A stretch of DNA of 64,000 bases, from IMG/VR virus record IMGVR_UViG_3300045988_124082; one strand, written 5' to 3'. The notes beneath the pieces are model-generated. The model searched no databases. It was given only the letters and a program-made list of their open reading frames with translations, and was not told the DNA's origin. The DNA comes from a virus. This document shows, one piece after another, positions 42,809 through 56,459 of the stretch (the stretch's first letter is position 1; every line of letters starts with the position of its first letter). The position numbers were made by a program, and so were the translations under genes.

Positions 42809-42944
42809 ATTTGAAACAGTAATGAAGTTAATTTGTTGGATTGCAGCAGTGACATTGGCATGGATGCACGTTTCAATTGTTGCAGTGATTGCACTTGCAT
42901 TGGTTGGAACTTTTGGAAGCGAGGTTGATTTGAGTGCAAAGTAG
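42801..42944 (+). CDS. small membrane protein (47 aa)
   Basis: MNRFETVMKLICWIAAVTLAWMHVSIVAVIALALVGTF, with two hydrophobic segments. Confidence 0.4.
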   Translation: MNRFETVMKLICWIAAVTLAWMHVSIVAVIALALVGTFGSEVDLSAK

Positions 42945-43266
42945 AGAAACGAGAAGAAAAGTACACTTTGGAGATTGTCATGTAGGCGATGTTTTTGGAA
43001 TAGATAAAGATAGTCCTTATGTACGTAGAAAAAACAGCTTATATGATCTTGAACCATCAGATGTATTAAAGGCAAAAGTTATATATGTAGACAAAGAAGA
43101 TTCCTCCATTCGCATAAAGGCTTATGTAAATAATGAAGAGACTCCAAGATTTTCAGGTTGGCTTTACTCTTTGGTAAACAATTCAGGAATATTACTACAT
43201 AGGTCAGATTTGTTTATTGAGGACAATCTCAGATTCTTGTCAAAGAGAAAGAATAACTACTGGTAA
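42934..43266 (+). CDS. C-tail-tagged small protein 6 (family B)
   Basis: GTG start. KVHFGDCHVGDVF. Ends ..KRKNNYW*. Confidence 0.65.
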   Translation: MQSRETRRKVHFGDCHVGDVFGIDKDSPYVRRKNSLYDLEPSDVLKAKVIYVDKEDSSIRIKAYVNNEETPRFSGWLYSLVNNSGILLHRSDLFIEDNLRFLSKRKNNYW

Positions 43267-43280
43267 AGAGAGGTGTAAGG

Positions 43281-43598
43281 ATGGAAGAGAAAAGAAAAGT
43301 ATGCTTCGATGATTGCGAAGTTGGCATGTTTTTTAGGATCGATAAAGACTGTCCATGGATGTATGACAATGAGTGGATGGATGGTTTTGATACATTGACA
43401 AACGCAGATGAGTTAAAAGTTAAAATTATCGATAAAGATGCTGATGATAGCAGTGTTGAGATAGAACTTTGGGCAGATGGTCAAAAGACACATATAACAG
43501 ATTGGCTCTATCAGTTTGAAGACGATCCAGAAGACAGAATTGGAAATAACCTTGAGTTTATATTAAAGAGGAAAAATAGAAAAAATAACTATTGGTGA
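43281..43598 (+). CDS. C-tail-tagged small protein 7 (family B)
   Basis: KVCFDDCEVGMFF. Ends ..NRKNNYW*. Confidence 0.7.
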   Translation: MEEKRKVCFDDCEVGMFFRIDKDCPWMYDNEWMDGFDTLTNADELKVKIIDKDADDSSVEIELWADGQKTHITDWLYQFEDDPEDRIGNNLEFILKRKNRKNNYW

Positions 43599-43608
43599 GG
43601 TGGTGTAA

Positions 43609-43869
43609 ATGGATAATGAATTAAAAATTGGAATGAAGTTCTTAGAAGTAAAAACCGGAATTGTCTGGAAGCTTACAGATATGAATTTTATACAAGAAGG
43701 GTTTTATATAATAGACAAATCATTGTGTTTTCAAGCTGTACGTATAAATACAGACGAGGATGATGTATGGAGAAGTACATCGTCAATGATACCTAAGACA
43801 ATGCTCGAAAGAAGATTGAAAAAAGGCGAATGGAAACAAATAAACAATAGAAAAAACAATTACTATTGA
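43609..43869 (+). CDS. C-tail-tagged small protein 8 (family D)
   Basis: LKIGMKFLEVKTGIVWKLT. Ends ..NRKNNYY*. Confidence 0.7.
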   Translation: MDNELKIGMKFLEVKTGIVWKLTDMNFIQEGFYIIDKSLCFQAVRINTDEDDVWRSTSSMIPKTMLERRLKKGEWKQINNRKNNYY

Positions 43870-43891
43870 TTGATAGTAGAAAGGACATATT

Positions 43892-45025
43892 ATGGAGGAT
43901 TTAAGATTAGTAACAACAGAAGAATTTAATGGGGTTGATTGCAACTTTTACAAGGCAGATAGTAACATGTGGATGACAAGAGGACAGATTGGTAAAGCTT
44001 TAGGGTATCACAATCCAAGGATTGCAATCGGGAAAATACATACTGCACATAGAGATAGACTTGATCCACTTTCAGTTGATACCAATTTAGTGTCTACTGA
44101 TGGAAAAGAATATTCTACTTATATATATAATGAAAGAGGCATCTTTGAAATCTGTAGATGGTCAAGACAACCAAAAGCAAATGAATTTATGGATTGGGTA
44201 TGGGACATTATAGAAGCATATAGACGTGGAGAATTCCAGAGAAAGCCTAGGGAAACAGCCATTACACCTGTTGAGAAATTCTTAGATGGAATGCAGAATA
44301 TGTTCTTAGAAATGAGAGAAGAGAACAAAATATTCAAAGATACTGTGTTGAAGATTTTAGAATCTCAGCAAGGACAGGAAGTACAAAAACCTGTTGAAAA
44401 ACTTGAAGCTCAAGAGAAAACTGTTAATCAAGTAAAAACAAAACCAGCTGTTAAGTCAGTTGTTAAGATTGAAAACCCTAGATTAGACACTTGGAAGTTC
44501 GAAATTGGTGCTAAAGCAGCCTATATTGTTTTTAATGGAAATGAATATAAAACAAAAGGAAAAGTATTCTCAGCATGTTATTCAAAAATGAAGAATGTGT
44601 ATGGAATTTGTTGGTCACAGGAAAATAAAGAATACAGGAGAGCTTTCGGATTAGAATCTCAGAGAGGTAGATTAAGTACTTTAGATGTTGTATTCAATGA
44701 TGAAAATTTGAAAGACCTGTTTGACAGTATTCTTGATGGAATATATGAAAACACAAAAAGAAAAGCTATAAAGAGAAATACGGGAACCAATCCAGAAAAA
44801 GATTGGCAATATTATAAAGAAAAGATTCAAAAACTTTGTGAGCAAACAGGCAACAAAAGTTTAGGCGGAAGCTCTATTTACTCAGGAATCATTAGAAAGA
44901 TGGATGTAGATTGGAGCAAGTATGAAACAAACAAAAAGAAAACTGAATTAGTTAAAAAATATCCAGAGTTGTTTGCAGAGTTCTCTAAGACAGCGGATAA
45001 ATATTTAGAGGAGAAGTTAAAATGA
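43892..45025 (+). CDS. Bro-N domain protein
   Basis: N-terminal EEFNGVDCNFYKADSNMWMTRGQIGKALGYHNPRIAIGKIHTAHRDRL follows the Bro-N pattern. The C-terminal 250 aa are unassigned. Confidence 0.6.
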   Translation: MEDLRLVTTEEFNGVDCNFYKADSNMWMTRGQIGKALGYHNPRIAIGKIHTAHRDRLDPLSVDTNLVSTDGKEYSTYIYNERGIFEICRWSRQPKANEFMDWVWDIIEAYRRGEFQRKPRETAITPVEKFLDGMQNMFLEMREENKIFKDTVLKILESQQGQEVQKPVEKLEAQEKTVNQVKTKPAVKSVVKIENPRLDTWKFEIGAKAAYIVFNGNEYKTKGKVFSACYSKMKNVYGICWSQENKEYRRAFGLESQRGRLSTLDVVFNDENLKDLFDSILDGIYENTKRKAIKRNTGTNPEKDWQYYKEKIQKLCEQTGNKSLGGSSIYSGIIRKMDVDWSKYETNKKKTELVKKYPELFAEFSKTADKYLEEKLK

Positions 45026-45141
45026 GTATTAAAATTTTAGGACTTCGTCAAGATTGCTACAAAGTAATCATTGATGGAGTCCTTTTTAAATTCCCAACAG
45101 AACAAGAGTTTTTGGAATTCTTAGAGGAGATTGAGATATGA
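45022..45141 (+). CDS. small ORF (39 aa), translationally coupled on both sides
   Basis: Own translation MSIKILGLRQDCYKVIIDGVLFKFPTEQEFLEFLEEIEI*. ATGA overlaps at both ends. Confidence 0.4.
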   Translation: MSIKILGLRQDCYKVIIDGVLFKFPTEQEFLEFLEEIEI

Positions 45142-45416
45142 GTTTTAGATTTGAAGTAGGTCAAGAGCTGGAATTACACAATAACTTGACGGATATGAAA
45201 GTTTACATGAGATCGGGAACGGTTGTTCGTATCTTAAGTAGAAAAACAAGAATGGATCATACACAAGGGGTTGAGAGAAATCGTTACAAGATTGCATATG
45301 AATTTCATACAAGCTTTTTGGAGATTGGAGATGGTTGTTACCACTGTGGAAAAGACTTTATCTGGGAAGAAGATTTAATTAGAGCTGTCGGTCAACGGAA
45401 GAATAATTATTATTAA
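45138..45416 (+). CDS. C-tail-tagged small protein 9 (singleton family E)
   Basis: Ends ..QRKNNYY*. The body is unlike families A-D. Confidence 0.65.
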   Translation: MSFRFEVGQELELHNNLTDMKVYMRSGTVVRILSRKTRMDHTQGVERNRYKIAYEFHTSFLEIGDGCYHCGKDFIWEEDLIRAVGQRKNNYY

Positions 45417-45428
45417 GAGGTGATTAAA

Positions 45429-45698
45429 ATGTGGAAAGTCGGAGATAGAGTCGTAATTATTCAAGATGCTAGAAGAAATTTAGAATCCTTTGTAGGTTTC
45501 AAGGGAACGGTTAACTTTGCAAGTAGAGATGAGATAAGTGTAGTTTTTGACAAATATGTAAACGGTCATGACTTACTAGGGGATTGTAAAAAAGGTTATG
45601 GATGGTTTTTGTCCTCAGACGGAGAGAACGAAAACGAAGCCGAAGCAAATGGAATGAGAGTCAAGAAAATTAACAACAGAAAAAATAATTATTGGTAG
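45429..45698 (+). CDS. C-tail-tagged small protein 10 (family A)
   Basis: MWKVGDRVVI behind GAGGTG. Ends ..NRKNNYW*. Confidence 0.7.
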   Translation: MWKVGDRVVIIQDARRNLESFVGFKGTVNFASRDEISVVFDKYVNGHDLLGDCKKGYGWFLSSDGENENEAEANGMRVKKINNRKNNYW

Positions 45699-45707
45699 GT
45701 GATAGGA

Positions 45708-45980
45708 ATGTGGGAAAAAGGTACAAGAGTTAGAATTATAAAATCAAACAGACTTATGACGCAAGTTGGTATCATGGGCACTGTGGTTTACATACATAAG
45801 GATGGAAATGATCGTTTTATAGTAGAGTTTGACGAACCTATGGATGGGAATTATATGACTACTTTTTGTGATTGCAAACCGAAGTGTTGGTGGTGGTTTG
45901 ATAATGTTCCGGGGAGAGTTGTTGAAACAGATGGTATAACAATTGAAAAAATAGGAAAAAGAAAAAACAATTATTACTAA
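45708..45980 (+). CDS. C-tail-tagged small protein 11 (family A)
   Basis: MWEKGTRVRII. Ends ..KRKNNYY*. Confidence 0.7.
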   Translation: MWEKGTRVRIIKSNRLMTQVGIMGTVVYIHKDGNDRFIVEFDEPMDGNYMTTFCDCKPKCWWWFDNVPGRVVETDGITIEKIGKRKNNYY

Positions 45981-45992
45981 GGCGGTGAGAAC

Positions 45993-46340
45993 ATGTGGGA
46001 AATTGGAGATAGAGTGGCTGTTACAGACTTAGGCAAAGTCTCTCAAGAGAATTATGGAATTGAAATAAAGATTGGATACAAGGGAACTATTATCAACTTT
46101 TTAAAGATTGATGTCCCATGGAATTCTGATGAGATAATTAAATTCTTAGTAGAGTTTGACGAACCCATGGATGGACATGATGGAAATGATTTCGGTAAAA
46201 TAAGTGGGAAATCGGGACACTGTTGGTGGATGCGTGGAAACCAAGATAGTAATTTAATCAAATGGCGAGATAGCCGGGATTGTGAAGCACCATTAATATG
46301 TAAGAAAATCATGAAGAAAAGGAAAAACAATTTTTACTAA
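45993..46340 (+). CDS. C-tail-tagged small protein 12 (family A)
   Basis: MWEIGDRVAV..VEFDEPMDGHDG..GHCWW. Ends ..KRKNNFY*. Confidence 0.7.
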   Translation: MWEIGDRVAVTDLGKVSQENYGIEIKIGYKGTIINFLKIDVPWNSDEIIKFLVEFDEPMDGHDGNDFGKISGKSGHCWWMRGNQDSNLIKWRDSRDCEAPLICKKIMKKRKNNFY

Positions 46341-46355
46341 AAGGAGAATAAAGAA

Positions 46356-46946
46356 ATGTTTAAAGTTGGAGATAGTATTAAGATAACAAAAACAAAGATG
46401 GTTAATGATGGAATATTGGTAATAAATGATCGTTATATTCGGTTATGGTCTGTTTATGGAAAAGTAAAAAATCAACAGGAAGACGAAAAAGGTACTAAAA
46501 GCTTTATTGTAACTTTTGATAGTTGGAAAGAATTATTGGATAATGGGGATGGGGTATATAAAGAAGCGACAAATGAATGTGGATTAAATATAGTTATGTC
46601 AGAGAAAGGTGAAATATTTGATTCGGATGGAAAAGTTGTTGTTTGGTGTGAAAAACACTTACCATGGAAAGAGATAGAGGAAGGGGAAACCTATAAAATA
46701 AAACCAAATTCACGCTTATGTAAAGAAGTATTAGAATGGGTTGAATATAAATCAAAAGCTGAATTAAAAATAGACCCGAATGAACTGACTGCTATGGTTA
46801 AACACACAAATATTGCCCAGGGGCTTCTCTTAGCAGTTGTTGTTCCTCTTGTCAATGGTAAGAGAGTTACTGAACGTGGTTGGGAATTGTTTGAAAACAA
46901 TTATTCAGATCAACTTAACATAGATGACAGCATTGAAGAGTTATAA
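46356..46946 (+). CDS. hypothetical protein with family-A-like N-terminus, untagged
   Basis: MFKVGDSIKITK.., 196 aa, ends ..DDSIEEL. Confidence 0.5.
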   Translation: MFKVGDSIKITKTKMVNDGILVINDRYIRLWSVYGKVKNQQEDEKGTKSFIVTFDSWKELLDNGDGVYKEATNECGLNIVMSEKGEIFDSDGKVVVWCEKHLPWKEIEEGETYKIKPNSRLCKEVLEWVEYKSKAELKIDPNELTAMVKHTNIAQGLLLAVVVPLVNGKRVTERGWELFENNYSDQLNIDDSIEEL

Positions 46947-46958
46947 ATGATTTTTATT

Positions 46959-46986
46959 AAAAGCACAGGTTTTACTTGTGCTTTTT
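46959..46986 (+). terminator. rho-independent terminator
   Basis: AAAAGCACAggttttactTGTGCTTTTT. Confidence 0.65.
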
Positions 46987-47147
46987 ACATTGTATAGGAT
47001 GACCAAACATTGGTTGTCTTATAGAGTGTAAAAGCTCTAAATTACATATCTAAAATACATAACACTGCAAATTAATGGCTAGGGCAGGATCGTGTGTAAG
47101 AGATACATAGCTACAATAATATTTTATAAAAGAAAAGGAGAAACAAA

Positions 47148-47513
47148 ATGAAAGTAGTAATCGCAGAAAACAGATTAGAGGTAGTAACAGGAATCAAAAA
47201 GGCAGACTTCGACAAACAGGTAACAGACATGACTGTTAAAGATGACAAAGGAAATGTGACATTTAAGTTAAAAGTTGGAGAACAGCCTAACATTTCAGTA
47301 CTTGGTTTAACTTGCAACACAACTGTTGACAAAGAGTTAGCGGTAACAATGATTCTTCCAATGGAAACAGATGTTGAAGAAATCAAAATCAAGTATGGTA
47401 AGGCTTTAGTAGCAGCTGAAAAGAATCTGAAAGTAATTGCTGACAGAATCGTAGCAGATACAGAAGCAGTTGATGGAATCTTTGCAGACACAGAAGAAGC
47501 AACAGAAGCCTAG
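47148..47513 (+). CDS. hypothetical protein, paralogue 1 of 48018..48362
   Basis: 121 aa with strong RBS AAAAGGAGAAAC. About 55% identical by eye to the 114-aa paralogue. Confidence 0.6.
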   Translation: MKVVIAENRLEVVTGIKKADFDKQVTDMTVKDDKGNVTFKLKVGEQPNISVLGLTCNTTVDKELAVTMILPMETDVEEIKIKYGKALVAAEKNLKVIADRIVADTEAVDGIFADTEEATEA

Positions 47514-47569
47514 GAACAGCCTTGAGTAAAGGTAAAACAATATAATCTAATATTAATTCATTCACTTAT

Positions 47570-47596
47570 AGGACGTCTCCCAAGGGCGTCCTTTTT
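47570..47596 (+). terminator. rho-independent terminator
   Basis: AGGACGtctcccaagggCGTCCT followed by TTTT. Confidence 0.65.
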
Positions 47597-47641
47597 AGTT
47601 ACACATTTACATATTCAGGAGATTAAAAGGAGAACAAAATT

Positions 47642-47881
47642 ATGATGATCAATGTAACATTAGCAACAACAGCAGGTAAAAGTCTTGTAACAGTAGAAGG
47701 AAACCAGACTCCATCACAAGTACTTGAAGAGAACAGCGTAGCAACAACAGGAGCTACTGTATCACTCAATATGAGACCACTTGCAGATAATGAAAAAGGT
47801 AAAACTTTTGAAGAATTAGGATGCACAGATGGTGATTCCGTAATGTTATCAGCAGTTGTAAAAGCAGACTCAGCAATGTAG
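47642..47881 (+). CDS. 79-aa ThiS/MoaD/ubiquitin-like (beta-grasp) candidate, copy 1
   Basis: The size and the C-terminal pattern ..LGCTDGDSVMLSAVVKADSAM parallel ThiS ..VQDGDQILLFQVIAGG. No terminal GG. Confidence 0.4.
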   Translation: MMINVTLATTAGKSLVTVEGNQTPSQVLEENSVATTGATVSLNMRPLADNEKGKTFEELGCTDGDSVMLSAVVKADSAM

Positions 47882-48017
47882 TAGTAAATCAAATTAGATA
47901 GTAAATATTGAAAATCATAACGCCATGGGAAGTAATAAATTAGATGGGACAGGATGATTTGAGATTTTACATATAAAGAAACTTAAAAAAATCAATGAAT
48001 TAAAAAGGAGAACAAAC

Positions 48018-48362
48018 ATGAAAGTATCATTAAAAGAAAACGCATTAGAAATCAACACAGAAATCAAAAAAGCTGACTTTGACAAGAAAGTAAGCAACAT
48101 GACAGTAACAAACAAAGATGGTGTACCAACATTTGTTTTACGCTGTGGAAGAGAGGGAGAAATTTCTCAGTTAGGACTTACATGTAACTCTACAATTGAC
48201 AAGAACTTAGCTGTAACAATTGTGTTGCCTCCAGAAACAAAAATGGAAGACATCAAAGTTGAATATGGTAAAGCCCTTGTAAATGCAGAAAAGGGATTAA
48301 AAGTCCTTGCTGGGAGAATTGAAGCCGATACGAAAGCTATTGATGCGATTTTTGCGGAATAG
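48018..48362 (+). CDS. hypothetical protein, paralogue 2 of 47148..47513
   Basis: 114 aa with RBS AAAAGGAGAAC. Confidence 0.6.
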   Translation: MKVSLKENALEINTEIKKADFDKKVSNMTVTNKDGVPTFVLRCGREGEISQLGLTCNSTIDKNLAVTIVLPPETKMEDIKVEYGKALVNAEKGLKVLAGRIEADTKAIDAIFAE

Positions 48363-48466
48363 AAAGTAAAATAATATCTAATGTAATTTCACAACAAACA
48401 GGGACAGTCAACCCAATAAGTCCTACGAGTAACTGTTAACCAAGCAAAATATTTTCTCTTTCGACT

Positions 48467-48510
48467 CAAAAGCTTTGCAGGTAGGGGTTGGACAGCAAAG
48501 CTTTTGTTTT
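48467..48510 (+). terminator. rho-independent terminator
   Basis: CAAAAGCTTTGCaggtaggggttggacaGCAAAGCTTTTG followed by TTTT. Confidence 0.7.
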
Positions 48511-48559
48511 AGTAACTATAGAACACAAGTATTAAAAGGATATAAAGGAGAACAAAATT

Positions 48560-48799
48560 ATGATGATCAATGTAACATTAGCAACAACAGCAGGTAAAAG
48601 TCTTGTAACAGTAGAAGGAAACCAGACTCCAAGTGAAGTGTTAGCTGAAAATAATGTAGCAACAACAGGAGCTACAATCTCTATGAATATGAGACCATTA
48701 AGTGTAGCTGAATTAACTGATACATTTGAAGAGCTTGGATGTAATGATGGTGATTCTATCATGTTATCAGCTGTAGTTAAAGCCGATTCTGCTTTCTAG
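48560..48799 (+). CDS. 79-aa ThiS/MoaD/ubiquitin-like (beta-grasp) candidate, copy 2
   Basis: The first 24 codons and the RBS are identical to copy 1, and the rest has diverged. Ends ..GDSIMLSAVVKADSAF. Confidence 0.4.
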   Translation: MMINVTLATTAGKSLVTVEGNQTPSEVLAENNVATTGATISMNMRPLSVAELTDTFEELGCNDGDSIMLSAVVKADSAF

Positions 48800-48901
48800 T
48801 TCTAGCAGGTAAAGAGAGAAGAACATGAAGAGCGTAGGTGTCATAGCCTACGTTCTTATTTTTTACTTATTAATTATATTCATAAGAAAGGAAAATACAT
48901 T

Positions 48902-50626
48902 ATGGAAGAAAGAAAATTTAAAACAAATGACTACGTGGTAGTAAAGAATTGGGATGAATTGGTTGAAGAATATGGATTGGTTGATCCCGAATCTGTTAGA
49001 GAACAGATGAGGAATGATGAGGATTGTTATTGGTCAGAAGAAGAGATTAATGAATACAATCCAGAAATCATTAATGTTCCATGGGGAGCAAGAAAAGCAA
49101 TGATTGATGAACTTGTAACTATGGGATTGATGAAGGTCAAAGAATATGGAGAAGATGGAAGTGTCCAGCTGGAAAGCGATACTTACATTGACAGTATTAT
49201 CCCAGAAGAGATTTTACAGCCTGTAAGCGAAGATGAGGTTAAGAATTATATCTTTTGGCTTAATAAAAAAGATGATGATTTTGTAATGCAGGACTACGAT
49301 TTTGCTCAAGCAAATGGATTATTAACTTATGTAGGATTGGTCAATGGAAGTATTGATTTTATCGGAGGAAACAAAGGTAATGAATTAATTGCTTATTTCT
49401 ATGCAGCATCAATTTTAAGATCAATTGATTTTAATGAGGGAGTTACAGAATATCTAAGCCATTGTCATGAAGTTAGTGTTCATACATTTGACCATTTTTA
49501 CACTGACAGAAAATCACATTTGCAGATTGTAGCGATAAAAGATGTTTCTGAGGATGGAGAAGAAGAACTTGTTAATATGTGGACAGAAAGAGGCTGGGAA
49601 GAAGTTGAATTCCACAACGATAAAGTTTTTAAGGTGTTTACTCATCCTGAGCAGAAAGGAACCACAATTTTCTTAAATGGAGAAAAAGAAGATTATAAAA
49701 AAGACTTTGAAGCTTATGAACTGATCATGCAGATTGTTAGCCATGTTTATGGAGATACAATGCAGGATGTTTTAGAAGTTGTTAGCAATAGAGATAGATC
49801 AGAAGCTATGAATATGATCCGTGATATTTTCTCAGAAGCGGATAAGCAGTATGTGAAAATCAAAAACAAAATTAATATTGAAAACTTCCTAAAGGTTGCA
49901 TCTAAAGGTCAGCAGAAACATTTAGAACGAGAAGTTCAGAATAATCAGGACAGAGTTAATAGCTATAAAGATAATCTCAGACACTCTCTTAAAACATTAA
50001 GAGAGTCACAAGAAAGACTCTTCGGATATTTACATATGAAAGATGATTCCCAGTTCAATGAAGTAAGAGAAATGTTAAACATGATGGGTGATGATTTAAG
50101 TGATTTTAGGTGTAATCCTAGCGGTGATTGGTTTAGCTTTGCAATCGTTCAGCCATTGTTATATTGGGATGATGATATTTACGAAAGAAACTTTGATGAT
50201 GAATACTTTGAAGAAGAGGCTGAATATGAAAAGACGAAAAAAGTATTCGACAAAATCTTTAAGACAAGAGAATACACTTTGTATCTACAGCAAGCAATAA
50301 TGATTGACTTGGTCAATAATAAACCAGTTGCAATGAGAGATTATAATTATACAAATGATATGTATATTCCTAATCCACATTTCCATGAGTTTAACTGTTG
50401 GGGAGCAAATGAAGCAAATTTAATTGAAGCGATTTCAAACAGAGATTATATGTCAATTTTCAATCTTGTTAGATCAGCTGTCGCTGGAATTTCTTTATAT
50501 GATACTTCTGTAGTAGGAGCTTTCTTTAATTATTGTGAAGACAGATTTACAAATAAAAAATGTCTTAAAGTTCCAGGAAGAGAAGAATTTATTTCATTCA
50601 AAGAAGCAAGAGCATTGGAGGATTAA
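48902..50626 (+). CDS. 574-aa hypothetical protein, first gene of the JAB/E1-like operon
   Basis: The stop lies 3 nt before the JAB gene. Near the C-terminus, IPNPHFHEFNCWGANE loosely resembles an E2 HPN..C active-site region (weak). Confidence 0.5.
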   Translation: MEERKFKTNDYVVVKNWDELVEEYGLVDPESVREQMRNDEDCYWSEEEINEYNPEIINVPWGARKAMIDELVTMGLMKVKEYGEDGSVQLESDTYIDSIIPEEILQPVSEDEVKNYIFWLNKKDDDFVMQDYDFAQANGLLTYVGLVNGSIDFIGGNKGNELIAYFYAASILRSIDFNEGVTEYLSHCHEVSVHTFDHFYTDRKSHLQIVAIKDVSEDGEEELVNMWTERGWEEVEFHNDKVFKVFTHPEQKGTTIFLNGEKEDYKKDFEAYELIMQIVSHVYGDTMQDVLEVVSNRDRSEAMNMIRDIFSEADKQYVKIKNKINIENFLKVASKGQQKHLEREVQNNQDRVNSYKDNLRHSLKTLRESQERLFGYLHMKDDSQFNEVREMLNMMGDDLSDFRCNPSGDWFSFAIVQPLLYWDDDIYERNFDDEYFEEEAEYEKTKKVFDKIFKTREYTLYLQQAIMIDLVNNKPVAMRDYNYTNDMYIPNPHFHEFNCWGANEANLIEAISNRDYMSIFNLVRSAVAGISLYDTSVVGAFFNYCEDRFTNKKCLKVPGREEFISFKEARALED

Positions 50627-50629
50627 AAA

Positions 50630-51595
50630 ATGAGAAAAATTAGAATTGAAGAATTAGATGCACAGAGATTAGTACAAGAAGTGATAGCGAAAGCTATCAC
50701 TTCTATTGGTTTAACCCCAGAAAAATTACAGATGGAAATTAATCCTAATGTAAAACTTAAAGAAGAAGAGAAAATTGAGATTGCTTTTTCAGAAATGGCA
50801 GAAAAGAAAATGTATTATCTCATTCACGAATGTGAAAAAGAAATTGGTTGGCATGGACTTGTCAGTCGAAGCGAAAATGGATTCTATGTAGAAGACATTA
50901 TTGTATTCCCACAGGAAGTTACAGGAGCTACTGTAACATCAGATGATGAGCTATATCCAACTTGGATGCTTAGTCAGCCAGATGAGATTTACAATAAGAT
51001 TAGATTTCATGGACATTCACATGTAAATATGGCAACAAGTCCAAGTGGTGTAGATGATACGTATCAGGAGCAGATTATTCAACAGTTTATGTCTAGTCCA
51101 CTTGATGAAAATAATTTTTACATATTCGGCATTTTCAACAAAAAGGGAAGCTATTGGTTAAATATTTATGACATTTATAACAATAAATTTTATGAGACAG
51201 ATGATATTAGTTATGTTTTTTATCAGTCAGATGAACAGGCATGGGCTAAAGAACAGATTAAAGAGAATGTAAAAGAAGAAGTAGCTGTAAAAACAAGTGG
51301 ATATTATTCTAATGGATATGGTTATAGAGGCGGTGGATACGGAACAGAAGAGCTGTATGATACTTGGAAAAAGAACTATGATAAAAACAAAGGCAAAGAG
51401 AAGCCAAAAAAAGATGAAGCAGAGTTGCGAAAAGAATTAAGTGGAGCAATTATTGCAGATTTAACACCTCCAAAATGGCATAGTAAATGGAGTAAATGTT
51501 TACAGAGGATGATTAGCTGTGATGAAAGTCTTGATGATTTAATTGAAGAGTATTGTATTACTTATCCAGATTATAGTGGAACAAAAAAGAAATAG
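50630..51595 (+). CDS. JAB/MPN+ (JAMM) metallopeptidase with long C-terminal extension
   Basis: Complete JAMM signature: upstream Glu (IHECEKEIGWHG), then HSH-VNMATSP-S-GV-D, which is HxHx7Sx2D. Confidence 0.7.
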   Translation: MRKIRIEELDAQRLVQEVIAKAITSIGLTPEKLQMEINPNVKLKEEEKIEIAFSEMAEKKMYYLIHECEKEIGWHGLVSRSENGFYVEDIIVFPQEVTGATVTSDDELYPTWMLSQPDEIYNKIRFHGHSHVNMATSPSGVDDTYQEQIIQQFMSSPLDENNFYIFGIFNKKGSYWLNIYDIYNNKFYETDDISYVFYQSDEQAWAKEQIKENVKEEVAVKTSGYYSNGYGYRGGGYGTEELYDTWKKNYDKNKGKEKPKKDEAELRKELSGAIIADLTPPKWHSKWSKCLQRMISCDESLDDLIEEYCITYPDYSGTKKK

Positions 51596-51607
51596 AGGAG
51601 GATGATT

Positions 51608-52285
51608 ATGAATACAAGTAAAGTTTTAGAATTTTTTGATGCACAGACATTAGTTAAAAAACCAGTTCATGTAATTGGATGTGGAGCAATTGGCTCAAAT
51701 GTCGCAGAACAGCTTACAAGATTAGGAGTCTCAGTGATTCATCTCTGGGATTACGATCATGTTGAGCCTAAAAATGTAACTAATCAGATGTTCTTTGATG
51801 GGGATATCGGAAAAGCTAAGGTAGATGCAATTGAAAATTTGTGTAAGTCAATTAATCCACAGATTAAAATAATCAAACATGAAAGAGGGATTGATGATCC
51901 ATATATTCTTACAGGATATGTATTCTTATGTGTAGATAATATTGAGCTTAGAAAGAAAATCGTAGAGGCCAATAAGTTAAATCCAAACTGTATTGCGTTC
52001 TTTGATTTTAGAATGAGACTTACAGATGCACAGCATTATTTTGCTGATTGTTCAGTTAAAGAACAGGTTGAAAACTTAATTGGAACCATGAATTTTACCC
52101 ATGAAGAAGCGGCTGCAGCAACTCCTACAAGTGCTTGTGGAGTGGAATTAAGTGTATGCTATACAGTTAAGAATATTGTTTGTTATGGAATTGCAAATTT
52201 TGTTAACTTTTGCCTAGGGAATGAACCAAAACAGATGATTATTACAGATATGAAGACAATGGATGTGACAGTATTCCCTATGTAA
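51608..52285 (+). CDS. ThiF/MoeB/E1-like adenylyltransferase (minimal, about 225 aa)
   Basis: VHVIGCGAIGSNVAEQLTRLGV (GxGxxG Rossmann) followed by LWDYDHVEPKNVTNQMF (DxDxVxxxNxxRQ-like). Confidence 0.7.
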   Translation: MNTSKVLEFFDAQTLVKKPVHVIGCGAIGSNVAEQLTRLGVSVIHLWDYDHVEPKNVTNQMFFDGDIGKAKVDAIENLCKSINPQIKIIKHERGIDDPYILTGYVFLCVDNIELRKKIVEANKLNPNCIAFFDFRMRLTDAQHYFADCSVKEQVENLIGTMNFTHEEAAAATPTSACGVELSVCYTVKNIVCYGIANFVNFCLGNEPKQMIITDMKTMDVTVFPM

Positions 52286-52288
52286 GAG

Positions 52289-52567
52289 GTGATGATCTTG
52301 ATAGAAGAAAAATATAAAGCGGTACCTAAAAATTATAAGGGGATTGTAAGACTTAAGCCAACAATAGCACGTTTCCGCCCTTATTACCATGCGTATGTTA
52401 AGTTGGAGGAGGGCTATCACTATACGGGTAATCCAGATCACACAGTATACGTTGAGTTGTACAAGACTTATCAAGATTTAACAAACAATGGTAGGTGTAT
52501 AAGGGAAGGCCTTATAGAAGAAAGAAGCTTATATGTTCCAAGAGAACGTAAGAATAATTATTGGTAG
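52289..52567 (+). CDS. C-tail-tagged small protein 13 (family C, VPKGYKG..GNPDH)
   Basis: Starts 3 nt after the E1-like stop (GTG; TTG 52298 is also possible). Ends ..ERKNNYW*. Confidence 0.65.
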   Translation: MMILIEEKYKAVPKNYKGIVRLKPTIARFRPYYHAYVKLEEGYHYTGNPDHTVYVELYKTYQDLTNNGRCIREGLIEERSLYVPRERKNNYW

Positions 52568-52575
52568 GTGAGAAT

Positions 52576-52848
52576 ATGTGGGAAAAAGGTACAAGAGTTA
52601 AGATAATAGGGGGAGCAAAAATCGGCTTAATGGGGACAGTGGTTGTTAAGTGCACAGAAACCCCTGTCAATGACATTAGAGATCGCTTCTTAGTAGAGTT
52701 TGACGAATCCATGGGTGGACATAGTGGAAATGGAGCTTATGAAGGAAAGCGGGGACATTGTTGGTGGTTTGATTATTGTTTAGAAAAGGTTACTATCACA
52801 GATGGCATAAGCATTGAGCAAGTCAAAAGGAAAAATAATTTTTACTAG
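52576..52848 (+). CDS. C-tail-tagged small protein 14 (family A)
   Basis: MWEKGTRVKII..VEFDESMGGHSG..GHCWW. Ends ..KRKNNFY*. Confidence 0.7.
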   Translation: MWEKGTRVKIIGGAKIGLMGTVVVKCTETPVNDIRDRFLVEFDESMGGHSGNGAYEGKRGHCWWFDYCLEKVTITDGISIEQVKRKNNFY

Positions 52849-52861
52849 GGGGGGTGATTAG

Positions 52862-54638: not shown

Positions 54639-55940
54639 GTGAATGGAATCAATAAAAGGAAATTAGAACTGTTTATGGATGATCAGCTATGGAGACAAAA
54701 TATTACACATCAGCAAAGCAAAGGTGTACATAGAGATGTATTAAGAATTGTGTGTGATCCAGAATACAAAGCACGGCTTTTAGGAATGATCTGGGATGGT
54801 AATTACAAAATTGCACCTCCGTATGTAGTAGAAATTCCTAAAGACAATGGAAAAGTAAGAGAAGTGTATGTTAATCAGCCAATTGACAGATTTGTTATGA
54901 CACAAATCAATTATGTTTATATGCAATTATATGGTCATATGATTCATCCAAGATGTGTGTCTTATCAGAAAGGAATTGGAGTTAAAAATATCGTAGATGA
55001 TATTTGTATGGAGCTTAAGAAACATCAAGGAGCTGTCGGGTATAAGGTAGACATTAGTAAGTATTTTGACAGTGTAAGCCGTGAGGTCCTTAATGAAATG
55101 ATTGATAAAATTGATACAGGAAGTCCTATTGATCAGATCGTAAGAGATTATTATATGGATGATTGTATCATTGATCAGAAAGGAAATGTTATTGAGAAAT
55201 ACAAAAGTATGACTCAGGGTTGTGCAGTGTCTACATTCTTTGCCAATTGTGTTTTAAAAGATGTTGATGAAGAGTTAAGCAAGATGGATATTATTTATTA
55301 CAGATATTCAGATGATATCTTGATGGTTGGTAAGGATGCAGATAAGGCTTTGAAGATGTTGGGAGAAATGTTAGAAACGAAAGGACTTACATTAAATCCT
55401 AAAAAGGTAGAAACAGTCAGTACAGATCAATGGTTTACATTCTTAGGAGTGCGAATTAATGGACAGAAAAGAAGTTTTTCTGAGAAGAGCTTAAAGGAAT
55501 TTCAGAAACATATTAGAGAATATGTAAATAAGAAAGCAGGAATTGGTAGCGTAAAAGTTGCAATCAGACAAATTAATAAATATCTGTATTTGAATTTCTT
55601 AAGGAATCCTAATGAGTTTGGTTGGGCTGAGTATTTCTTTAGTATTGTGAATGTCGAAGATGATATTAAGACATTAGATATGTGGATTAAAGATACACTC
55701 AGAGGTTTGTATACTGGTAAGAGAGGAAAAGAACAGATAGGTGGACTAGGTGTAAATAAAGTAACTAATGAATGTGGAGTATTAAGAGGGAAGGGCAACA
55801 AAGTAAGTTCAAATTTACGTAAAACAAGAAGTGATAAAGACATTTTAGAAGAAGCAGGATATATCAGTATGAATGAAATGTATCATCAGTTTAGATATAG
55901 CAAAGAATTGTACAGGGCTTCATTGACGGCTTTATCTTAA
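54639..55940 (+). CDS. reverse transcriptase (stand-alone, no endonuclease or maturase domain recognised)
   Basis: RT motifs in order: IPKDNGKVREV, YKVDISKYFDSV, QGCAVSTFFANCVL, YYRYSDDILMVG (YxDD), LTLNPKKVE, FTFLGVRI. GTG start behind GGGGGTG. Confidence 0.85.
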   Translation: MNGINKRKLELFMDDQLWRQNITHQQSKGVHRDVLRIVCDPEYKARLLGMIWDGNYKIAPPYVVEIPKDNGKVREVYVNQPIDRFVMTQINYVYMQLYGHMIHPRCVSYQKGIGVKNIVDDICMELKKHQGAVGYKVDISKYFDSVSREVLNEMIDKIDTGSPIDQIVRDYYMDDCIIDQKGNVIEKYKSMTQGCAVSTFFANCVLKDVDEELSKMDIIYYRYSDDILMVGKDADKALKMLGEMLETKGLTLNPKKVETVSTDQWFTFLGVRINGQKRSFSEKSLKEFQKHIREYVNKKAGIGSVKVAIRQINKYLYLNFLRNPNEFGWAEYFFSIVNVEDDIKTLDMWIKDTLRGLYTGKRGKEQIGGLGVNKVTNECGVLRGKGNKVSSNLRKTRSDKDILEEAGYISMNEMYHQFRYSKELYRASLTALS

Positions 55941-56459
55941 GTGTAACCTAACACGAGGTACTTATGTGAAATGTTATAAGTCAAATCAGATCCCTAGGAT
56001 ACACGGGTGATTCCATGCATGGTTGATAACCAGCATTCCATCAACCCGTTCCTCCCTGGATCTTATCATCATAAAGGAAATTTAGAAACGTGTTATTAAC
56101 ATGAACATAAGAAAGTTACTATGGACGTTGTATGTGAGACAATGGAATTACATATAAGGCGCGTTGAAGCTGCAGGATGACTGGCAATACATTGACCAAG
56201 TCATCCCTGCAGCTCAACCGCTTTATAATCATAAAAGAATAAAGGAACATAGCATGATTGTGAGCATACAAACAAGCTAACATGGGCTAAACATACGAGA
56301 CGTTGAATCATACATAATAAGGGCACAGCTGCCTTATGCAGCGGGAAATTAGTCTCCTCGACAATAATTTCACCGCTGCCACAGGCGTGCGTGCCCTTAT
56401 TAATCATAAACCAATAGAGAAAACATGTCGCCAATGTAGAGTATGTAGAAAGGAAAATC
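55941..56459 (+). ncRNA. hairpin array 1: three long variable hairpins, each followed by conserved ATCATAAA
   Basis: Hairpins at 55988-56063, 56153-56227 and 56317-56400 (75-84 nt, imperfect, unrelated sequences). ATCATAAA at 56068, 56228 and 56403. RNA status and strand are inferred, not shown. Confidence 0.45.

What the first reader, a model, noticed from the sequence alone, without database searches (positions are those of the whole stretch)
46947..48901. Tandemly duplicated two-gene module encoding a 114-121-aa protein and a 79-aa ThiS/ubiquitin-like candidate without a Gly-Gly end
Modules at 47100-47900 and 47970-48810 each have their own strong RBS (AAAAGGAGAAC) and their own terminator, which suggests high, independent expression. 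The 79-aa proteins have the size of ThiS/MoaD-type beta-grasp proteins and a matching C-terminal pattern (..DGDS(V/I)MLSAVVKADSA-M/F). They lie immediately upstream of a JAB peptidase and an E1-like gene. They end in Ala plus one hydrophobic residue rather than GG, which would fit JAB trimming before activation (speculative). The function of the 114/121-aa partner is unknown.
Basis: inference. Interest (0 to 1): 0.75.

Follow-up and report, generated by a model that had tools for sequence, protein, structure and literature searches.

The report
Duplicated phage ubiquitin-like gene pair
Two tandem copies of a gene pair in a gut phage encode a ubiquitin-fold protein that ends in Ala rather than Gly-Gly and a partner with a previously unseen fold; the pairs open a conserved six-gene cassette (with a JAB peptidase, an E1-like enzyme and a reverse transcriptase) that looks like an undescribed phage-borne ubiquitin-like modification system.

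Summary
Genes A1-B1-A2-B2 (47148-48799, + strand) are a tandem duplication: A1/A2 are 61% identical and B1/B2 82%.

- **B (79 aa):** predicted with good confidence to be a beta-grasp ubiquitin fold. The top structural matches are ubiquitin, SUMO, ISG15 and bacterial BilA. Across 213 homologous domains the conserved core ends in small-residue+Ala (SA, NA or GA; GG in only 7). It is followed by 0, 1, 2 or more variable residues. Head-to-tail B-B and B-A fusions also occur. This is the signature of a ubiquitin-like precursor that is trimmed.
- **A (114-121 aa):** modelled at pLDDT 93.7 as a new fold with no conserved catalytic residue. It is not an E2.
- **Context:** in every related locus with enough flank, the order is A, B, X (orphan protein with an invariant His-x5-Cys), JAB-like peptidase (intact JAMM motif), minimal E1 (invariant Cys), and a reverse transcriptase related to the window's (the window's own scores as RT_UG27). 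These loci are gut phage contigs and gut MAG contigs.

No paper in the searchable library links UG27 to ubiquitin-like machinery. The best reading is a phage Ubl pathway with JAB trimming and E1 activation, whose target is unknown. The A-B duplication is specific to this clade.

The parts
46960..46985 (+). Terminator-like hairpin followed by a U run. It ends the upstream gene and insulates the A1 unit. A second strong hairpin follows at about 46985-47032.
   Evidence: RNA fold of 46947-47060 gives -36.4 kcal/mol, z -6.7.
47134..47147 (+). Extended Shine-Dalgarno sequence of A1 (AAAGGAGAAACAAA).
   Evidence: The pattern is found 3 times in the window, all at A/B genes, against 0.01 expected.
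47148..47513 (+). A1, 121 aa. It is the partner protein of a new fold: a beta-rich domain plus a 40-residue C-terminal helix and an acidic tail.
   Evidence: ORF. AF2 pLDDT 93.7, pTM 0.84. No significant PDB fold match: best E 0.27, TM 0.3. Only two uncharacterised gut-phage proteins match in BFVD. No invariant residue across the family.
47570..47592 (+). Intrinsic terminator-like hairpin between A1 and B1.
47642..47881 (+). B1, 79 aa. Ubiquitin-like beta-grasp protein. The conserved core ends ...VVKADSA and is followed by one extra residue (Met).
   Evidence: AF2 with a 138-sequence alignment, pLDDT 83.8. Foldseek PDB top hits are ubiquitin, SUMO, ISG15 and BilA.
48018..48362 (+). A2, 114 aa. 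Paralogue of A1 (61% identity) lacking the acidic tail.
   Evidence: It is orthologous to L004 A2 (68%) more than to its own neighbour A1.
48467..48506 (+). Terminator-like hairpin (12-bp stem, 16-nt loop, then UUUU) between A2 and B2.
   Evidence: Centroid structure in the fold of 48410-48559. The simple scanner missed it because of the loop size.
48560..48799 (+). B2, 79 aa. Paralogue of B1 (82% identity). The same core ends ...VVKADSA and is followed by Phe. A paralogue-specific loop spans residues 47-55.
   Evidence: The loop and the tail residue are shared with L004 B2.
48828..48857 (+). Intrinsic terminator-like hairpin after B2.
48902..50626 (+). X, 574 aa. Orphan protein with a variable N-terminal part, a coiled-coil-like middle and a conserved C-terminal domain. 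Pro492, His493, Cys499 and Gly501 are invariant (NPH-x5-C-[WF]-G). It is a candidate second carrier or ligase.
   Evidence: Alignments A8 and A13. No hit in Pfam, PHROGs, NCBIfam, PADLOC or PDB sequences. Always the third gene of the cassette.
50630..51595 (+). JAB/JAMM-like metallopeptidase, 321 aa. Glu71, His129-Ser-His131, Ser139 and Asp142 fit E-x(n)-H-x-H-x7-S-x2-D.
   Evidence: Invariant columns in A7. The HxHx7SxxD motif is present in all 37 distinct homologues. The upstream Glu (E-[IV]-x-W-H-G) was matched by pattern in 26 of them and seen by eye in the 6 non-matching ones inspected. The profile hits Rpn11 at E 0.014, aligned on the motif. One member hits Pfam JAB at E 0.005.
51602..52285 (+). 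Minimal E1-like adenylating enzyme, 227 aa (ThiF fold). It has GCGxxG, Asp50/52, Lys73, Asp112-Asn113, and Cys179 in the motif TP-x-[ST]-A-C, which is conserved in all 19 diverse homologues aligned.
   Evidence: Pfam ThiF E 1e-21. NCBIfam and PADLOC E1 hits. PDB sequence hits: UBA5 1e-10, MccB, MoeB, BubCD. Alignments.
54639..55940 (+). Reverse transcriptase of group UG27, 433 aa. It is the sixth gene of the cassette in relatives. Here it is separated from the E1 gene by nine small ORFs.
   Evidence: PADLOC RT_UG27 E 1e-164. An RT sits directly downstream of E1 in L015-L017, L019-L022 and L026-L045.
55941..56459 (+). Non-coding stretch downstream of the RT. It has three long hairpins, each followed by ATCATAAA, and is the candidate UG27-associated ncRNA.
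   Evidence: Alignment and fold with L001, L004 and L017. A three-stem-loop ncRNA next to UG27 RTs is described in 10.1101/2021.12.02.470933.

Best explanation
**What it is**
A1-B1-A2-B2 are the highly expressed small components of a conserved phage cassette, A-B-X-JAB-E1-RT. The cassette is best read as an autonomous ubiquitin-like modification pathway.

**Proposed mechanism**
1. B is the modifier. It is a beta-grasp protein made as a precursor with one extra C-terminal residue. In relatives the precursor carries 0-12 extra residues, or is a B-B or B-A fusion.
2. The JAMM peptidase cuts after the conserved Ala and exposes ...VKADSA-COOH. This step is inferred.
3. The minimal homodimer-type E1 adenylates that carboxylate. 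This step is inferred.
4. B is then passed to the invariant E1 Cys179, to the invariant Cys499 of X, or to both. X would act as the E2/E3-like carrier. This step is inferred and weakly supported.
5. B ends up on an acceptor that is still unknown.

**Role of A**
A is not an enzyme. It is a stoichiometric partner of B and is physically fused to B in many relatives. It is most likely the dedicated acceptor or adaptor, or an oligomerising scaffold through its long helix.

**The duplication**
The tandem duplication gives two co-adapted A-B pairs. A copies have diverged. B copies are kept alike, being fully homogenised in one relative. This fits one shared E1/JAB/X machinery serving two different A partners.

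**Link to the RT**
Because the cassette is almost always followed by an RT related to the window's UG27 RT, plus an ncRNA, the pathway probably works with or on that RT system.
For: **Shown by computation**
- Duplication.
- Ubiquitin fold of B. Ubl-family sequence echoes (SAMP2 in 12 members, ubiquitin, ThiS, YukD).
- C-terminal signature in 213 B domains: the core ends SA (84), NA (53), GA (38), AA (11) or GG (7). It is followed by 0 (29), 1 (103), 2 (38) or 3-12 (11) residues, or by a fused domain (32) (examples).
- Tandem B-B proteins end exactly at the motif, or at the motif plus one or two residues (P0059, P0091, P0125).
- B-A fusions have no linker between ...KADNA and the first strand of A. 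They sit in the same cassette (L019, L022).
- JAMM motif: HxHx7SxxD is present in all 37 homologues, and the upstream Glu is present in all that were checked.
- E1 adenylation residues and the invariant Cys179.
- X has an invariant His-x5-Cys in 36 distinct sequences that are only 15-25% identical.
- The gene order A-B-X-JAB-E1(-RT) is found in all loci with enough flank, from gut phage contigs and gut MAGs of Bacillota and Bacteroidota.
- A versus B paralogue pattern, including B1=B2 at 237/237 nt in L001.
- Dedicated strong RBS and a cluster of terminators.

**Precedent from the literature**
In Bub type I operons a Ubl-E2 fusion is cleaved by a JAB-E1 fusion to expose the Ubl C-terminus (PMC11601596).
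Against: - No biochemical data exist. The target is unknown.
- No UBC-fold E2 was found.
- X has no detectable similarity to anything.
- All well-studied E1s take a Gly-Gly or Gly end. Whether an ...S-A end fits the channel is untested.
- The canonical Arg of the E1 motif N-x-x-R-Q is Asn61 here.
- The JAB assignment rests on the motif plus sub-threshold profile hits (E 0.005-0.014).
- A has no conserved Lys or any other invariant polar residue that would mark an acceptor site.
- Synteny with the RT is not proof of functional coupling. In the L024 locus the gene right after E1 is not an RT.
Confidence: 0.6

Rival explanations
1. **Sulfur-carrier and synthase pair (MoaD-MoaE or ThiS-ThiG logic).** The E1 would adenylate and then thiocarboxylate B. 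A would be the 'large subunit' that uses B-COSH to thiolate a small molecule or a nucleic acid, possibly the RT product.
For: - The layout is a Ubl plus a partner of about 120 aa, an E1 and a JAB. B-A fusions cut by a JAMM peptidase recall what I recall being reported for SAMP1/MoaE and HvJAMM1 in Haloferax; only the abstract of PMC4443979, which describes covalent SAMP1 linkage reversed by HvJAMM1, was seen here.
- The E1 has an invariant Cys near the active site.
- The E1 hits MoeB and ThiF.
- A few B members hit ThiS weakly.
Against: - The cassette holds no rhodanese, cysteine desulfurase or other sulfur donor.
- Only 7 of 213 B domains end in Gly-Gly, which known sulfur carriers have.
- A has no invariant catalytic residue and no fold match to MoaE or ThiG.
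- Duplication, a strong RBS and own terminators fit a consumed or stoichiometric protein better than a catalytic carrier.
- Structural neighbours of B are protein modifiers.
Confidence: 0.1
2. **Non-covalent pair.** B and A would form a stable heteromer, for example a scaffold, filament or regulatory complex. The beta-grasp domain would be a mere interaction module, as in the phage lambda tail assembly protein I. The JAB would only mature fusion precursors. The E1-like protein would do unrelated adenylation chemistry.
For: - B-A fusions and strict pairing.
- A has a 40-residue helix typical of oligomerising proteins and no catalytic residues.
- Phage Ubl-JAB pairs without conjugation are known from tail assembly clusters (PMC1779556).
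- High-expression signals.
Against: - The extreme conservation of the last six residues of B, next to freely varying trailing residues, points to chemistry at that exact C-terminus.
- An intact adenylation site is conserved in every cassette.
- The cassette lies among early or replication-type genes, not in the structural module on the other strand.
Confidence: 0.12
3. **Counter-defence decoy.** The phage would make large amounts of a Ubl mimic, plus a deconjugating JAB, to jam or reverse host ubiquitin-like immunity (Bil, Bub, type II CBASS Cap2/Cap3).
For: - Host Bil systems conjugate a Ubl to phage tail proteins, according to the abstract of 10.1101/2023.09.04.556158 listed.
- BilA is among the structural neighbours of B (8tyx_A).
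- B shows abundant-expression signals.
- Mestre et al. suggest an anti-defence or addiction role for the UG27 RT.
Against: - A decoy does not need its own E1, X and A.
- The cassette is conserved across phages of both Bacillota and Bacteroidota hosts, with no sign of tracking a given host system.
- B ends in Ala whereas BilA and BubA end in Gly.
- There is no sequence similarity to Bil or Bub components beyond the generic E1 fold.
Confidence: 0.1

Closest known systems
Bub (6E/DUF6527) type I operons: BubAB (Ubl-E2 fusion), BubCD (JAB-E1 fusion), BubE (PMC11601596)
   Same: - A Ubl is made as a fusion to its partner and released by a JAMM peptidase at the last residue of the Ubl.
- The E1 is a minimal homodimer-type enzyme.
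- Ubl domains occur in tandem.
- The system lies outside the canonical Cys-E1/UBC-E2/Gly-Gly scheme.
   Different: - The fused partner A is not a UBC fold and has no conserved Ser or Cys.
- JAB and E1 are separate genes.
- There is no DUF6527 protease.
- B ends in Ala, not Gly.
- The E1 keeps an invariant Cys, whereas BubCD has none.
- The cassette is phage-borne and linked to an RT.
- Sequence similarity is limited to the Rossmann part of the E1 (BubCD E 1e-4).
Archaeal sampylation: SAMP1/2/3, UbaA (E1), HvJAMM1
   Same: - It uses a small beta-grasp modifier, a single minimal E1, a JAMM peptidase and no recognisable E2 or E3.
- SAMP2 is the best sequence-level relative of B (PDB 5lda_B E 0.002; Pfam SAMP2 in 12 of 138 members).
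   Different: - SAMPs end in Gly-Gly and double as sulfur carriers.
- Sampylation has no A or X partner and no RT.
- It is cellular, not viral.
- All sequence hits are below the curated thresholds.
Bil systems (BilA Ubl, BilB E2, BilC JAB, BilD E1)
   Same: - Ubl, JAB and E1 are encoded together.
- BilA is a structural neighbour of B (8tyx_A, TM 0.66).
- Both belong to the phage-host conflict setting.
   Different: - Bil has a UBC-type E2 and a large multi-domain E1.
- It is encoded by bacteria against phages.
- Its Ubl ends in Gly.
- None of A, B, X or JAB hits any PADLOC or NCBIfam family. Whether those libraries hold Bil models was not checked.
Type II CBASS Cap2 (E1-E2) and Cap3 (JAB)
   Same: - E1 chemistry and a JAB are coupled to a nucleotidyltransferase-type enzyme.
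- From memory, not checked here: the conjugated CD-NTase C-terminus can end in Ala or Gly.
- PADLOC E1-E2 models are the best defence-library hits for the E1.
   Different: - In CBASS the enzyme's own tail is conjugated and there is no separate Ubl.
- Here a dedicated Ubl exists, no E2 domain is fused to the E1 (227 aa only), and the linked polymerase is a reverse transcriptase.
UG27 reverse transcriptase system of human-gut phages (Mestre et al., 10.1101/2021.12.02.470933)
   Same: - The window's RT scores 1e-164 on RT_UG27.
- The same kind of phages is involved: gut phages with Bacillota and Bacteroidota hosts.
- There is an ncRNA with three long hairpins next to the RT.
- UG27 is reported to be associated with conserved neighbour clusters of unknown function.
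   Different: - That work reports no known domains in the associated clusters and does not mention ThiF, JAB or ubiquitin-like proteins.
- No paper in the library holds both UG27 and ubiquitin, ThiF, JAMM or Ubl.
- I could not map their cluster numbers onto A, B, X, JAB or E1.
PRTRC (ParB-related, ThiF-related cassette) of plasmids and ICEs
   Same: It is a mobile-element cassette with a ThiF-family protein and small uncharacterised partners.
   Different: - The E1 scores only 1.6e-8 (34 bits, against a cut-off of 145) on PRTRC_ThiF, which is worse than on generic ThiF models.
- A, B, X and JAB hit no NCBIfam family at all, and therefore no PRTRC protein family that the library holds.
- No ParB was seen in the relatives whose neighbour genes carried Pfam annotation, and the window proteins around the cassette that were scanned gave no ParB hit. 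Most of the window's ORFs were not scanned.

Membership tests
Ubiquitin-like beta-grasp modifiers (Ub/SUMO/SAMP type) | Beta-grasp fold (beta-beta-alpha-beta-beta-3-10-beta) with a flexible C-terminal tail | tested here: met
   The AF2 model has pLDDT 83.8, strands at 2-8, 13-19, 38-42 and 66-73, a helix at 24-30, and a disordered tail at 77-79. Foldseek PDB gives 123 hits at E<=1e-3, all top hits being Ub, SUMO, ISG15 or BilA.
Ubiquitin-like beta-grasp modifiers (Ub/SUMO/SAMP type) | C-terminal Gly-Gly (or Gly) exposed for activation | tested here: not met
   The core ends in Ser-Ala in the window. Across 213 domains the counts are SA 84, NA 53, GA 38, AA 11 and GG only 7.
Ubiquitin-like beta-grasp modifiers (Ub/SUMO/SAMP type) | Made as a precursor with variable C-terminal extension, or as head-to-tail or fusion proteins that need processing | tested here: met
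   Tail lengths after the motif are 0, 1, 2 or 3-12 residues, and 32 domains are in fusions. B-B proteins are P0059, P0091 and P0125. B-A fusions include P0047, P0089 and P0147.
Ubiquitin-like beta-grasp modifiers (Ub/SUMO/SAMP type) | Covalent attachment to targets through the C-terminal carboxylate | not testable with these tools
   This needs mass spectrometry or Western blots of infected cells, or in vitro reconstitution.
ThiS/MoaD sulfur carriers (Pfam PF02597) | Match to the family model above its threshold, and a Gly-Gly end | tested here: not met
   The window B proteins give no hit. Only 2 of 138 family members hit ThiS, the best at E 0.0015. No Gly-Gly end. No sulfur-transfer genes lie in the cassette.
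JAB/JAMM/MPN+ metallopeptidases | Active-site motif E-x(n)-H-x-H-x7-S-x2-D | tested here: met
   Glu71, His129, His131, Ser139 and Asp142 are invariant. HxHx7SxxD is present in all 37 distinct homologues. The upstream Glu was matched by pattern in 26 and seen by eye in the 6 non-matching ones inspected.
JAB/JAMM/MPN+ metallopeptidases | Significant match to a family profile or to a solved member | tested here: inconclusive
   The window protein has no Pfam hit at E<=1. One of 10 relatives hits PF01398 at E 0.005. The profile hits Rpn11 at E 0.014, aligned across the motif.
E1-like adenylating enzymes (ThiF/MoeB/UBA5 type) | ThiF Rossmann domain with a Gly-rich loop, ATP-binding Asp and Lys, and the Mg-binding Asp | tested here: met
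   PF00899 E 1e-21, 77.7 bits against a cut-off of 28.1. UBA5 E 1e-10. Invariant G26-C-G28-x-x-G31, D50, D52, K73, D112-N113. The Arg of N-x-x-R-Q is replaced by Asn61.
E1-like adenylating enzymes (ThiF/MoeB/UBA5 type) | Catalytic Cys in or near the crossover loop | tested here: inconclusive
   Cys179 in TP-x-[ST]-A-C is conserved in all 19 diverse homologues aligned. Whether it is positioned as in UBA5 Cys250 or ThiF Cys184 was not tested structurally.
UBC-fold E2 enzymes (including Bub BubB and Cap2 E2) | UBC fold with a conserved nucleophile (Cys, or Ser in Bub) | tested here: not met
   This was tested for A. The model is confident (pLDDT 93.7), no UBC hit appears among 231 weak PDB matches, and Cys56 is not conserved outside the window's clade. 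X was not modelled. It has an invariant His-x5-Cys but no sequence match to any E2.
Bil, Bub and PRTRC systems as named families | Component proteins match the curated family models | tested here: not met
   At E<=1, A, B, X and JAB hit nothing in NCBIfam. X, JAB, B1, B2 and A2 hit nothing in PADLOC. A1's only PADLOC hit is an unrelated restriction-enzyme model (E 0.019). The E1 hits only through its generic Rossmann part; PRTRC_ThiF scores 34 bits against a cut-off of 145. Whether these libraries hold Bil or Bub models was not checked.
UG27 RT system of gut phages | RT matching the UG27 model, next to an ncRNA with three long stem-loops | tested here: met
   RT_UG27 E 1e-164 over the full length. 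Three hairpins, each followed by ATCATAAA, lie in 55941-56459 and are conserved with L001, L004 and L017.

The most novel reading that the evidence does not exclude
The ubiquitin-like pathway and the UG27-type reverse transcriptase form one machine. In this reading the E1-activated C-terminus of B, with A as its partner, is joined to the RT, to its ncRNA or cDNA product, or to a protein primer. Alternatively B switches the RT on and off, much as Cap2 and Cap3 prime CD-NTases. That would be the first ubiquitin-like modification system wired to reverse transcription, and the first complete Ubl pathway owned by a bacteriophage, using an Ala-terminated modifier.
Probability: 0.3. Interest if true: 0.92.

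Novelty: new variant of a known kind. Interest (0 to 1): 0.8.

Why it matters
Ubiquitin-like conjugation in prokaryotes is so far known as a cellular function (sulfur transfer, sampylation) or as antiviral defence encoded by bacteria (Bil, Bub, CBASS Cap2/Cap3). Here the machinery belongs to the virus.

- **Breadth.** The modifier family has at least 289 representatives at 50% identity. It is spread over gut phage contigs and gut MAGs of Bacillota and Bacteroidota.
- **Chemistry.** The modifier ends in Ala instead of Gly-Gly. That tests what an E1 can accept.
- **New proteins.** The cassette brings two families with no known relatives: A, a new fold, and X, with an invariant His-Cys pair.
- **Link to UG27.** The cassette is tied to an RT of the kind of UG27, whose function in phages is an open question. 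If the link is functional, the UG27 problem becomes directly testable through B adducts, JAB and E1 mutants and RT activity. It would also add a new branch to the early evolution of ubiquitin signalling.

The clade-specific duplication, with diverging A and homogenised B, offers a natural experiment on partner specificity.

Tried and rejected
- **Named phage relatives.** Nucleotide search of 46947-52300 against 50,697 GenBank phage records found nothing. A protein search with B1 gave one weak hit in an unannotated faecal phage. There is no named relative.
- **Family libraries.** Pfam, PHROGs, NCBIfam and PADLOC gave nothing usable for A, B, X or JAB.
- **A as a small E2 or thioester carrier using Cys56.** Rejected. 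The Cys is lost outside the clade and the fold is not UBC.
- **Resemblance of A to type III secretion chaperones** (CesT, STM2138). Not significant: E 0.27, TM 0.3.
- **JGI name 'archaellin'** for one B-A fusion.
- **PRTRC membership.** Rejected.
- **A shared promoter motif (TTTTACATWT) upstream of the four genes.** It occurs 3 times in the window against 1.7 expected, so it is not significant. Sigma-70-like sites are not enriched.
- **The 19 small ORFs with (R/K)KNN(Y/F)(Y/W) tails as substrates of the E1.** These tails occur only in the window's own clade. They are absent from the distant phages that carry the cassette, so there is no general link.
- **Covariance model of the E1-RT intergenic hairpin of one subclade.** It found no match in the window. 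The window's candidate ncRNA lies downstream of the RT instead.
- The 138-sequence B alignment was too variable for the search for related loci, so a narrower one was used.
- **The 2026 preprint with 74 mentions of UG27** (10.64898/2026.09.22.753630) could not be opened. Term probing shows it holds none of ubiquitin, ThiF, JAMM, E1-like, MoeB or Ubl.

Full report
**1. The observation**

The span 46947-48901 holds four + strand genes: A1 47148-47513 (121 aa), B1 47642-47881 (79 aa), A2 48018-48362 (114 aa) and B2 48560-48799 (79 aa). A1/A2 are 61% identical (E 4e-48). B1/B2 are 82% identical (E 1e-46). The duplication is also visible as DNA repeats 870-918 nt apart.

All four genes carry an extended Shine-Dalgarno sequence. 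AAAGGAGAA[AC][CA]AAA occurs three times in the 64-kb window, always before an A or B gene, against 0.01 expected. A2 is one base off. AAGGAG precedes only 15 of 79 ORFs in the window.

Terminator-like hairpins lie before A1 (about 46960-46985), after A1 (47570-47592), after A2 (48467-48506) and after B2 (48828-48857). After B1 there is only a weak hairpin. In the 20 kb from 36 to 56 kb, the only intergenic + strand terminators among the strong sites the scanner reports (stems of at least 9 pairs) are the two at 47570 and 48828. The genes are therefore unusually insulated, and the units look like A1 | B1-A2 | B2.

The window is phage-like. A structural block lies on the minus strand, there are seven tRNAs, and a block of small + strand genes follows. 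Near-identical IMG/VR contigs are 92-134 kb long.

**2. B is a ubiquitin-fold protein with a non-Gly-Gly, processed-looking end**

- **Family size.** Close homologues number only 17 clusters. A profile search of 1.84 billion representatives found 289 family members at E<=1e-3, nearly all 75-81 aa long.
- **Fold.** With a 138-sequence alignment, AlphaFold2 gives pLDDT 83.8. The topology is beta-beta-alpha-beta-beta-(short helix)-beta with a disordered last three residues. Foldseek against the PDB gives 123 hits at E<=1e-3. The top hits are ubiquitin, SUMO1/2, ISG15, Caldiarchaeum ubiquitin and the bacterial Ubl BilA (8tyx_A), with TM 0.55-0.67.
- **Sequence echoes.** The family profile weakly hits SAMP2 (E 0.002), PF1061, ThiS and ubiquilins in the PDB. 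Among 138 members, Pfam sub-threshold hits pile up on SAMP2 (12), ubiquitin (4), ThiS (2), YukD (2) and Rad60-SLD.
- **The C-terminus.** In close relatives MLSAVVKADSA is essentially invariant, while the last residue is M, F, K, R or the tripeptide FQF. In 213 B domains from 221 distinct proteins, the conserved core ends in SA (84), NA (53), GA (38), AA (11) or GG (7). It is followed by 0 (29), 1 (103), 2 (38) or 3-12 (11) residues of no fixed kind.
- **Fusions.** Thirty-two domains sit in fusions. Some are head-to-tail B-B proteins: P0059 ends exactly at ...RDNA, and P0091 and P0125 are similar. Many are B-A fusions of 192-207 aa in which ...VKADNA runs straight into the first strand of A.

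This is the pattern of ubiquitin-type precursors (polyubiquitin, ubiquitin fusions, capped tails). The mature end here would be Ala. That the tail is cut is an inference from this pattern.

**3. A is a new, non-enzymatic fold tied to B**

The A family was collected with a profile (67 proteins). It has no invariant residue; only Asp20, Phe39, Gly53 and Gly84 are conserved in at least 90% of sequences. Cys56 is invariant in the window's clade but is lost elsewhere.

AF2 models A1 at pLDDT 93.7 and pTM 0.84. The model is a beta-rich domain with a 40-residue C-terminal helix. It has no significant PDB neighbour: best E 0.27, TM 0.3. In BFVD it matches only two uncharacterised gut Siphoviridae proteins. 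A is therefore not a UBC-type E2.

The fusions are a Rosetta-stone link between A and B.

**4. The pairs belong to a conserved cassette**

HMM scans of all fetched loci show the order A, B, X, JAB-like, E1 in every locus with enough flank.
- Window clade: L001, L004, L006-L014.
- Distant phage contigs of 47-133 kb with B only 31-51% identical: L015-L021, plus L022 and L024.
- Seventeen complete loci from gut MAGs of Clostridia, Lachnospiraceae, Christensenellaceae, Paludibacteraceae and Rikenellaceae.

Outside the window's clade there is usually a single A-B pair or a B-A fusion. L024 carries a second A-B pair 6 kb upstream of its cassette. All-against-all BLAST shows that, apart from the RT region, no other neighbour of the cassette is shared.

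**JAB-like protein** (50630-51595). It has no Pfam hit, but it carries invariant Glu71, His129-x-His131, Ser139 and Asp142, which is the JAMM motif. HxHx7SxxD is present in all 37 distinct homologues, and the upstream Glu is present in all that were checked. Its profile aligns on that motif with Rpn11 (E 0.014).

**E1** (51602-52285). It is a 227-aa ThiF domain (PF00899 E 1e-21; UBA5 1e-10; MccB, MoeB and BubCD also hit). The nucleotide and metal ligands are intact, Asn replaces the usual Arg of N-x-x-R-Q, and Cys179 in TP-x-[ST]-A-C is invariant.

**X** (48902-50626). It varies greatly (14-21% identity to distant members). Across 36 distinct sequences it keeps Pro-His-x5-Cys-x-Gly and a downstream Asp-x2-Val. 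It matches nothing in Pfam, PHROGs, PADLOC, NCBIfam or PDB sequences.

**5. Link to a reverse transcriptase**

A reverse transcriptase directly follows the E1 gene in L015, L016, L017, L019/L022, L020, L021 and in every complete MAG locus. In the window's clade the RT (54639-55940) scores 1e-164 on PADLOC RT_UG27. It is separated from the E1 only by small ORFs. The 520-nt gap after it holds three long hairpins, each followed by ATCATAAA, conserved with L001, L004 and L017.

Mestre et al. described UG27 as an RT of human-gut phages. They reported conserved neighbour clusters 'without known domains' and an ncRNA with three long stem-loops. They do not mention ThiF, JAB or ubiquitin. No paper in the library combines UG27 with ubiquitin, ThiF, JAMM, E1-like, MoeB or Ubl. 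In one subclade the E1-RT gap starts with a 9-bp hairpin in which 7 pairs covary.

**6. The duplication**

A1 and A2 each have a closer orthologue in L004 (67% and 68%) than their own paralogue (61%). The duplication therefore predates that split.

B copies stay more alike: 82% in the window, 78% in L004, and identical at 237/237 nt in L001, where A1/A2 are only 68% identical. The differences between B1 and B2 cluster in loop 47-55 and in the trailing residue (Met against Phe). Both features are shared with the L004 orthologues.

My reading, which is an inference: one E1/JAB/X set constrains B, while A partners diversify.

**7. Mechanism**

*Shown by computation:* the ubiquitin fold of B; the precursor-like C-terminus; the fusion with A; intact JAMM and E1 active-site residues; invariant Cys in the E1 and in X; strict co-inheritance.

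*Inferred:* JAB cuts after Ala78. The E1 adenylates the new carboxylate. B passes through E1 Cys179 and/or X Cys499 to an acceptor. A is the partner or acceptor.

The nearest worked example is Bub type I, where a Ubl-E2 fusion is cut by a JAB-E1 fusion. The nearest in logic and sequence is E2-less sampylation.

*Rivals:*
- A MoaD-MoaE-like sulfur-carrier pair. Against it: no sulfur donor genes, almost no Gly-Gly ends, and no catalytic residues in A.
- A purely non-covalent B-A complex.
- An anti-defence decoy.

**8. Verdict**

It is not a member of the Bil, Bub, PRTRC, ThiS/MoaD or CBASS families by any model tested. It works most like a minimal Ubl pathway.

I rate it a new variant of a known kind, with high interest for four reasons. 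It is phage-owned. The modifier ends in Ala. It includes two orphan protein families. It has an unreported, very consistent link to reverse transcriptases of the UG27 type.

Noticed in passing
window 40730-46340 and 52289-54623 (+ strand): Nineteen small ORFs (71-145 aa) from at least two unrelated-looking sequence types all end in (R/K)KNN(Y/F)(Y/W). They flank the cassette on both sides. The same tails occur in L001, L004 and L006-L014 but not in distant phages that carry the cassette. A shared C-terminal tag, or a conserved DNA element at gene ends, is unexplained.
   Followed up: partly
window 54639-55940 and 55941-56459: The RT of group UG27 (PADLOC E 1e-164) is followed by a 520-nt non-coding stretch. 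That stretch has three long hairpins, each followed by ATCATAAA, conserved with L001, L004 and L017. It is probably the UG27 ncRNA described by Mestre et al.
   Followed up: partly
L029, L032, L034, L035, L037, L038, L041, L043, L044, L045: first ~90 nt after the E1 gene: A conserved element starts the roughly 300-nt E1-RT gap in one subclade. It includes a 9-bp hairpin with compensatory changes in 7 pairs. A covariance model finds three copies in L042 and weak copies downstream of the RT in L016 and L028, but none in the window.
   Followed up: partly
window 27357-27968 (- strand): A full-length ROOL RNA (Rfam RF03087, 305 bits) sits inside the phage tRNA cluster (tRNAs at 27025-28474).
   Followed up: no
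window 24072-24404 (- strand): A group I intron (RF00028, 62.5 bits) lies in the structural or late gene block.
   Followed up: no
window 62140-62289 (+ strand): An Rfam tRNA match spans 150 nt. ARAGORN did not call it. It may be an intron-containing or unusual tRNA.
   Followed up: no
L022 14913-17732, L019 12913-15732, L024 208-2940: Relatives carrying the cassette encode proteins of about 900-940 aa. Two of the three copies have a recorded PF05183 (cell-type RdRP) hit: faint in L023, unmarked in L024, and none recorded for L022. That domain recalls, from memory, the YonO single-subunit RNA polymerase of phage SPbeta. A YonV_C protein lies nearby. The genes sit just downstream of the RT in L022 and L019.
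   Followed up: no
L024 9767-10723 and 15857-16774: A distant phage (146-kb contig) also has two A-B pairs, here 6 kb apart. This is an independent case of extra A-B copies.
   Followed up: partly
L001 9128-9364 and 10001-10237: The two B genes of this relative are identical at all 237 nt while the flanking A genes are only 68% identical. That points to recent gene conversion confined to B.
   Followed up: yes
window 50677-50704 (+ strand): A perfect 12-bp hairpin (AGAAGTGATAGC GAAA GCTATCACTTCT) lies 48 nt inside the JAB-like coding sequence. No U run follows, and its role is unknown.
   Followed up: no
window 48902-49000 (N-terminus of X) compared with the small ORFs at 45420-46946 and 52561-53381: The N-terminus of X in this clade (KxxDYVVVKxWDEL) resembles the (M)W/FKVGDRVxV starts of the neighbouring small ORFs. 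Distant X proteins lack this part. Seen by eye only.
   Followed up: no
P0178 (B-A fusion, 204 aa; L022 10001-10615): JGI names this fusion protein 'archaellin'.
   Followed up: no
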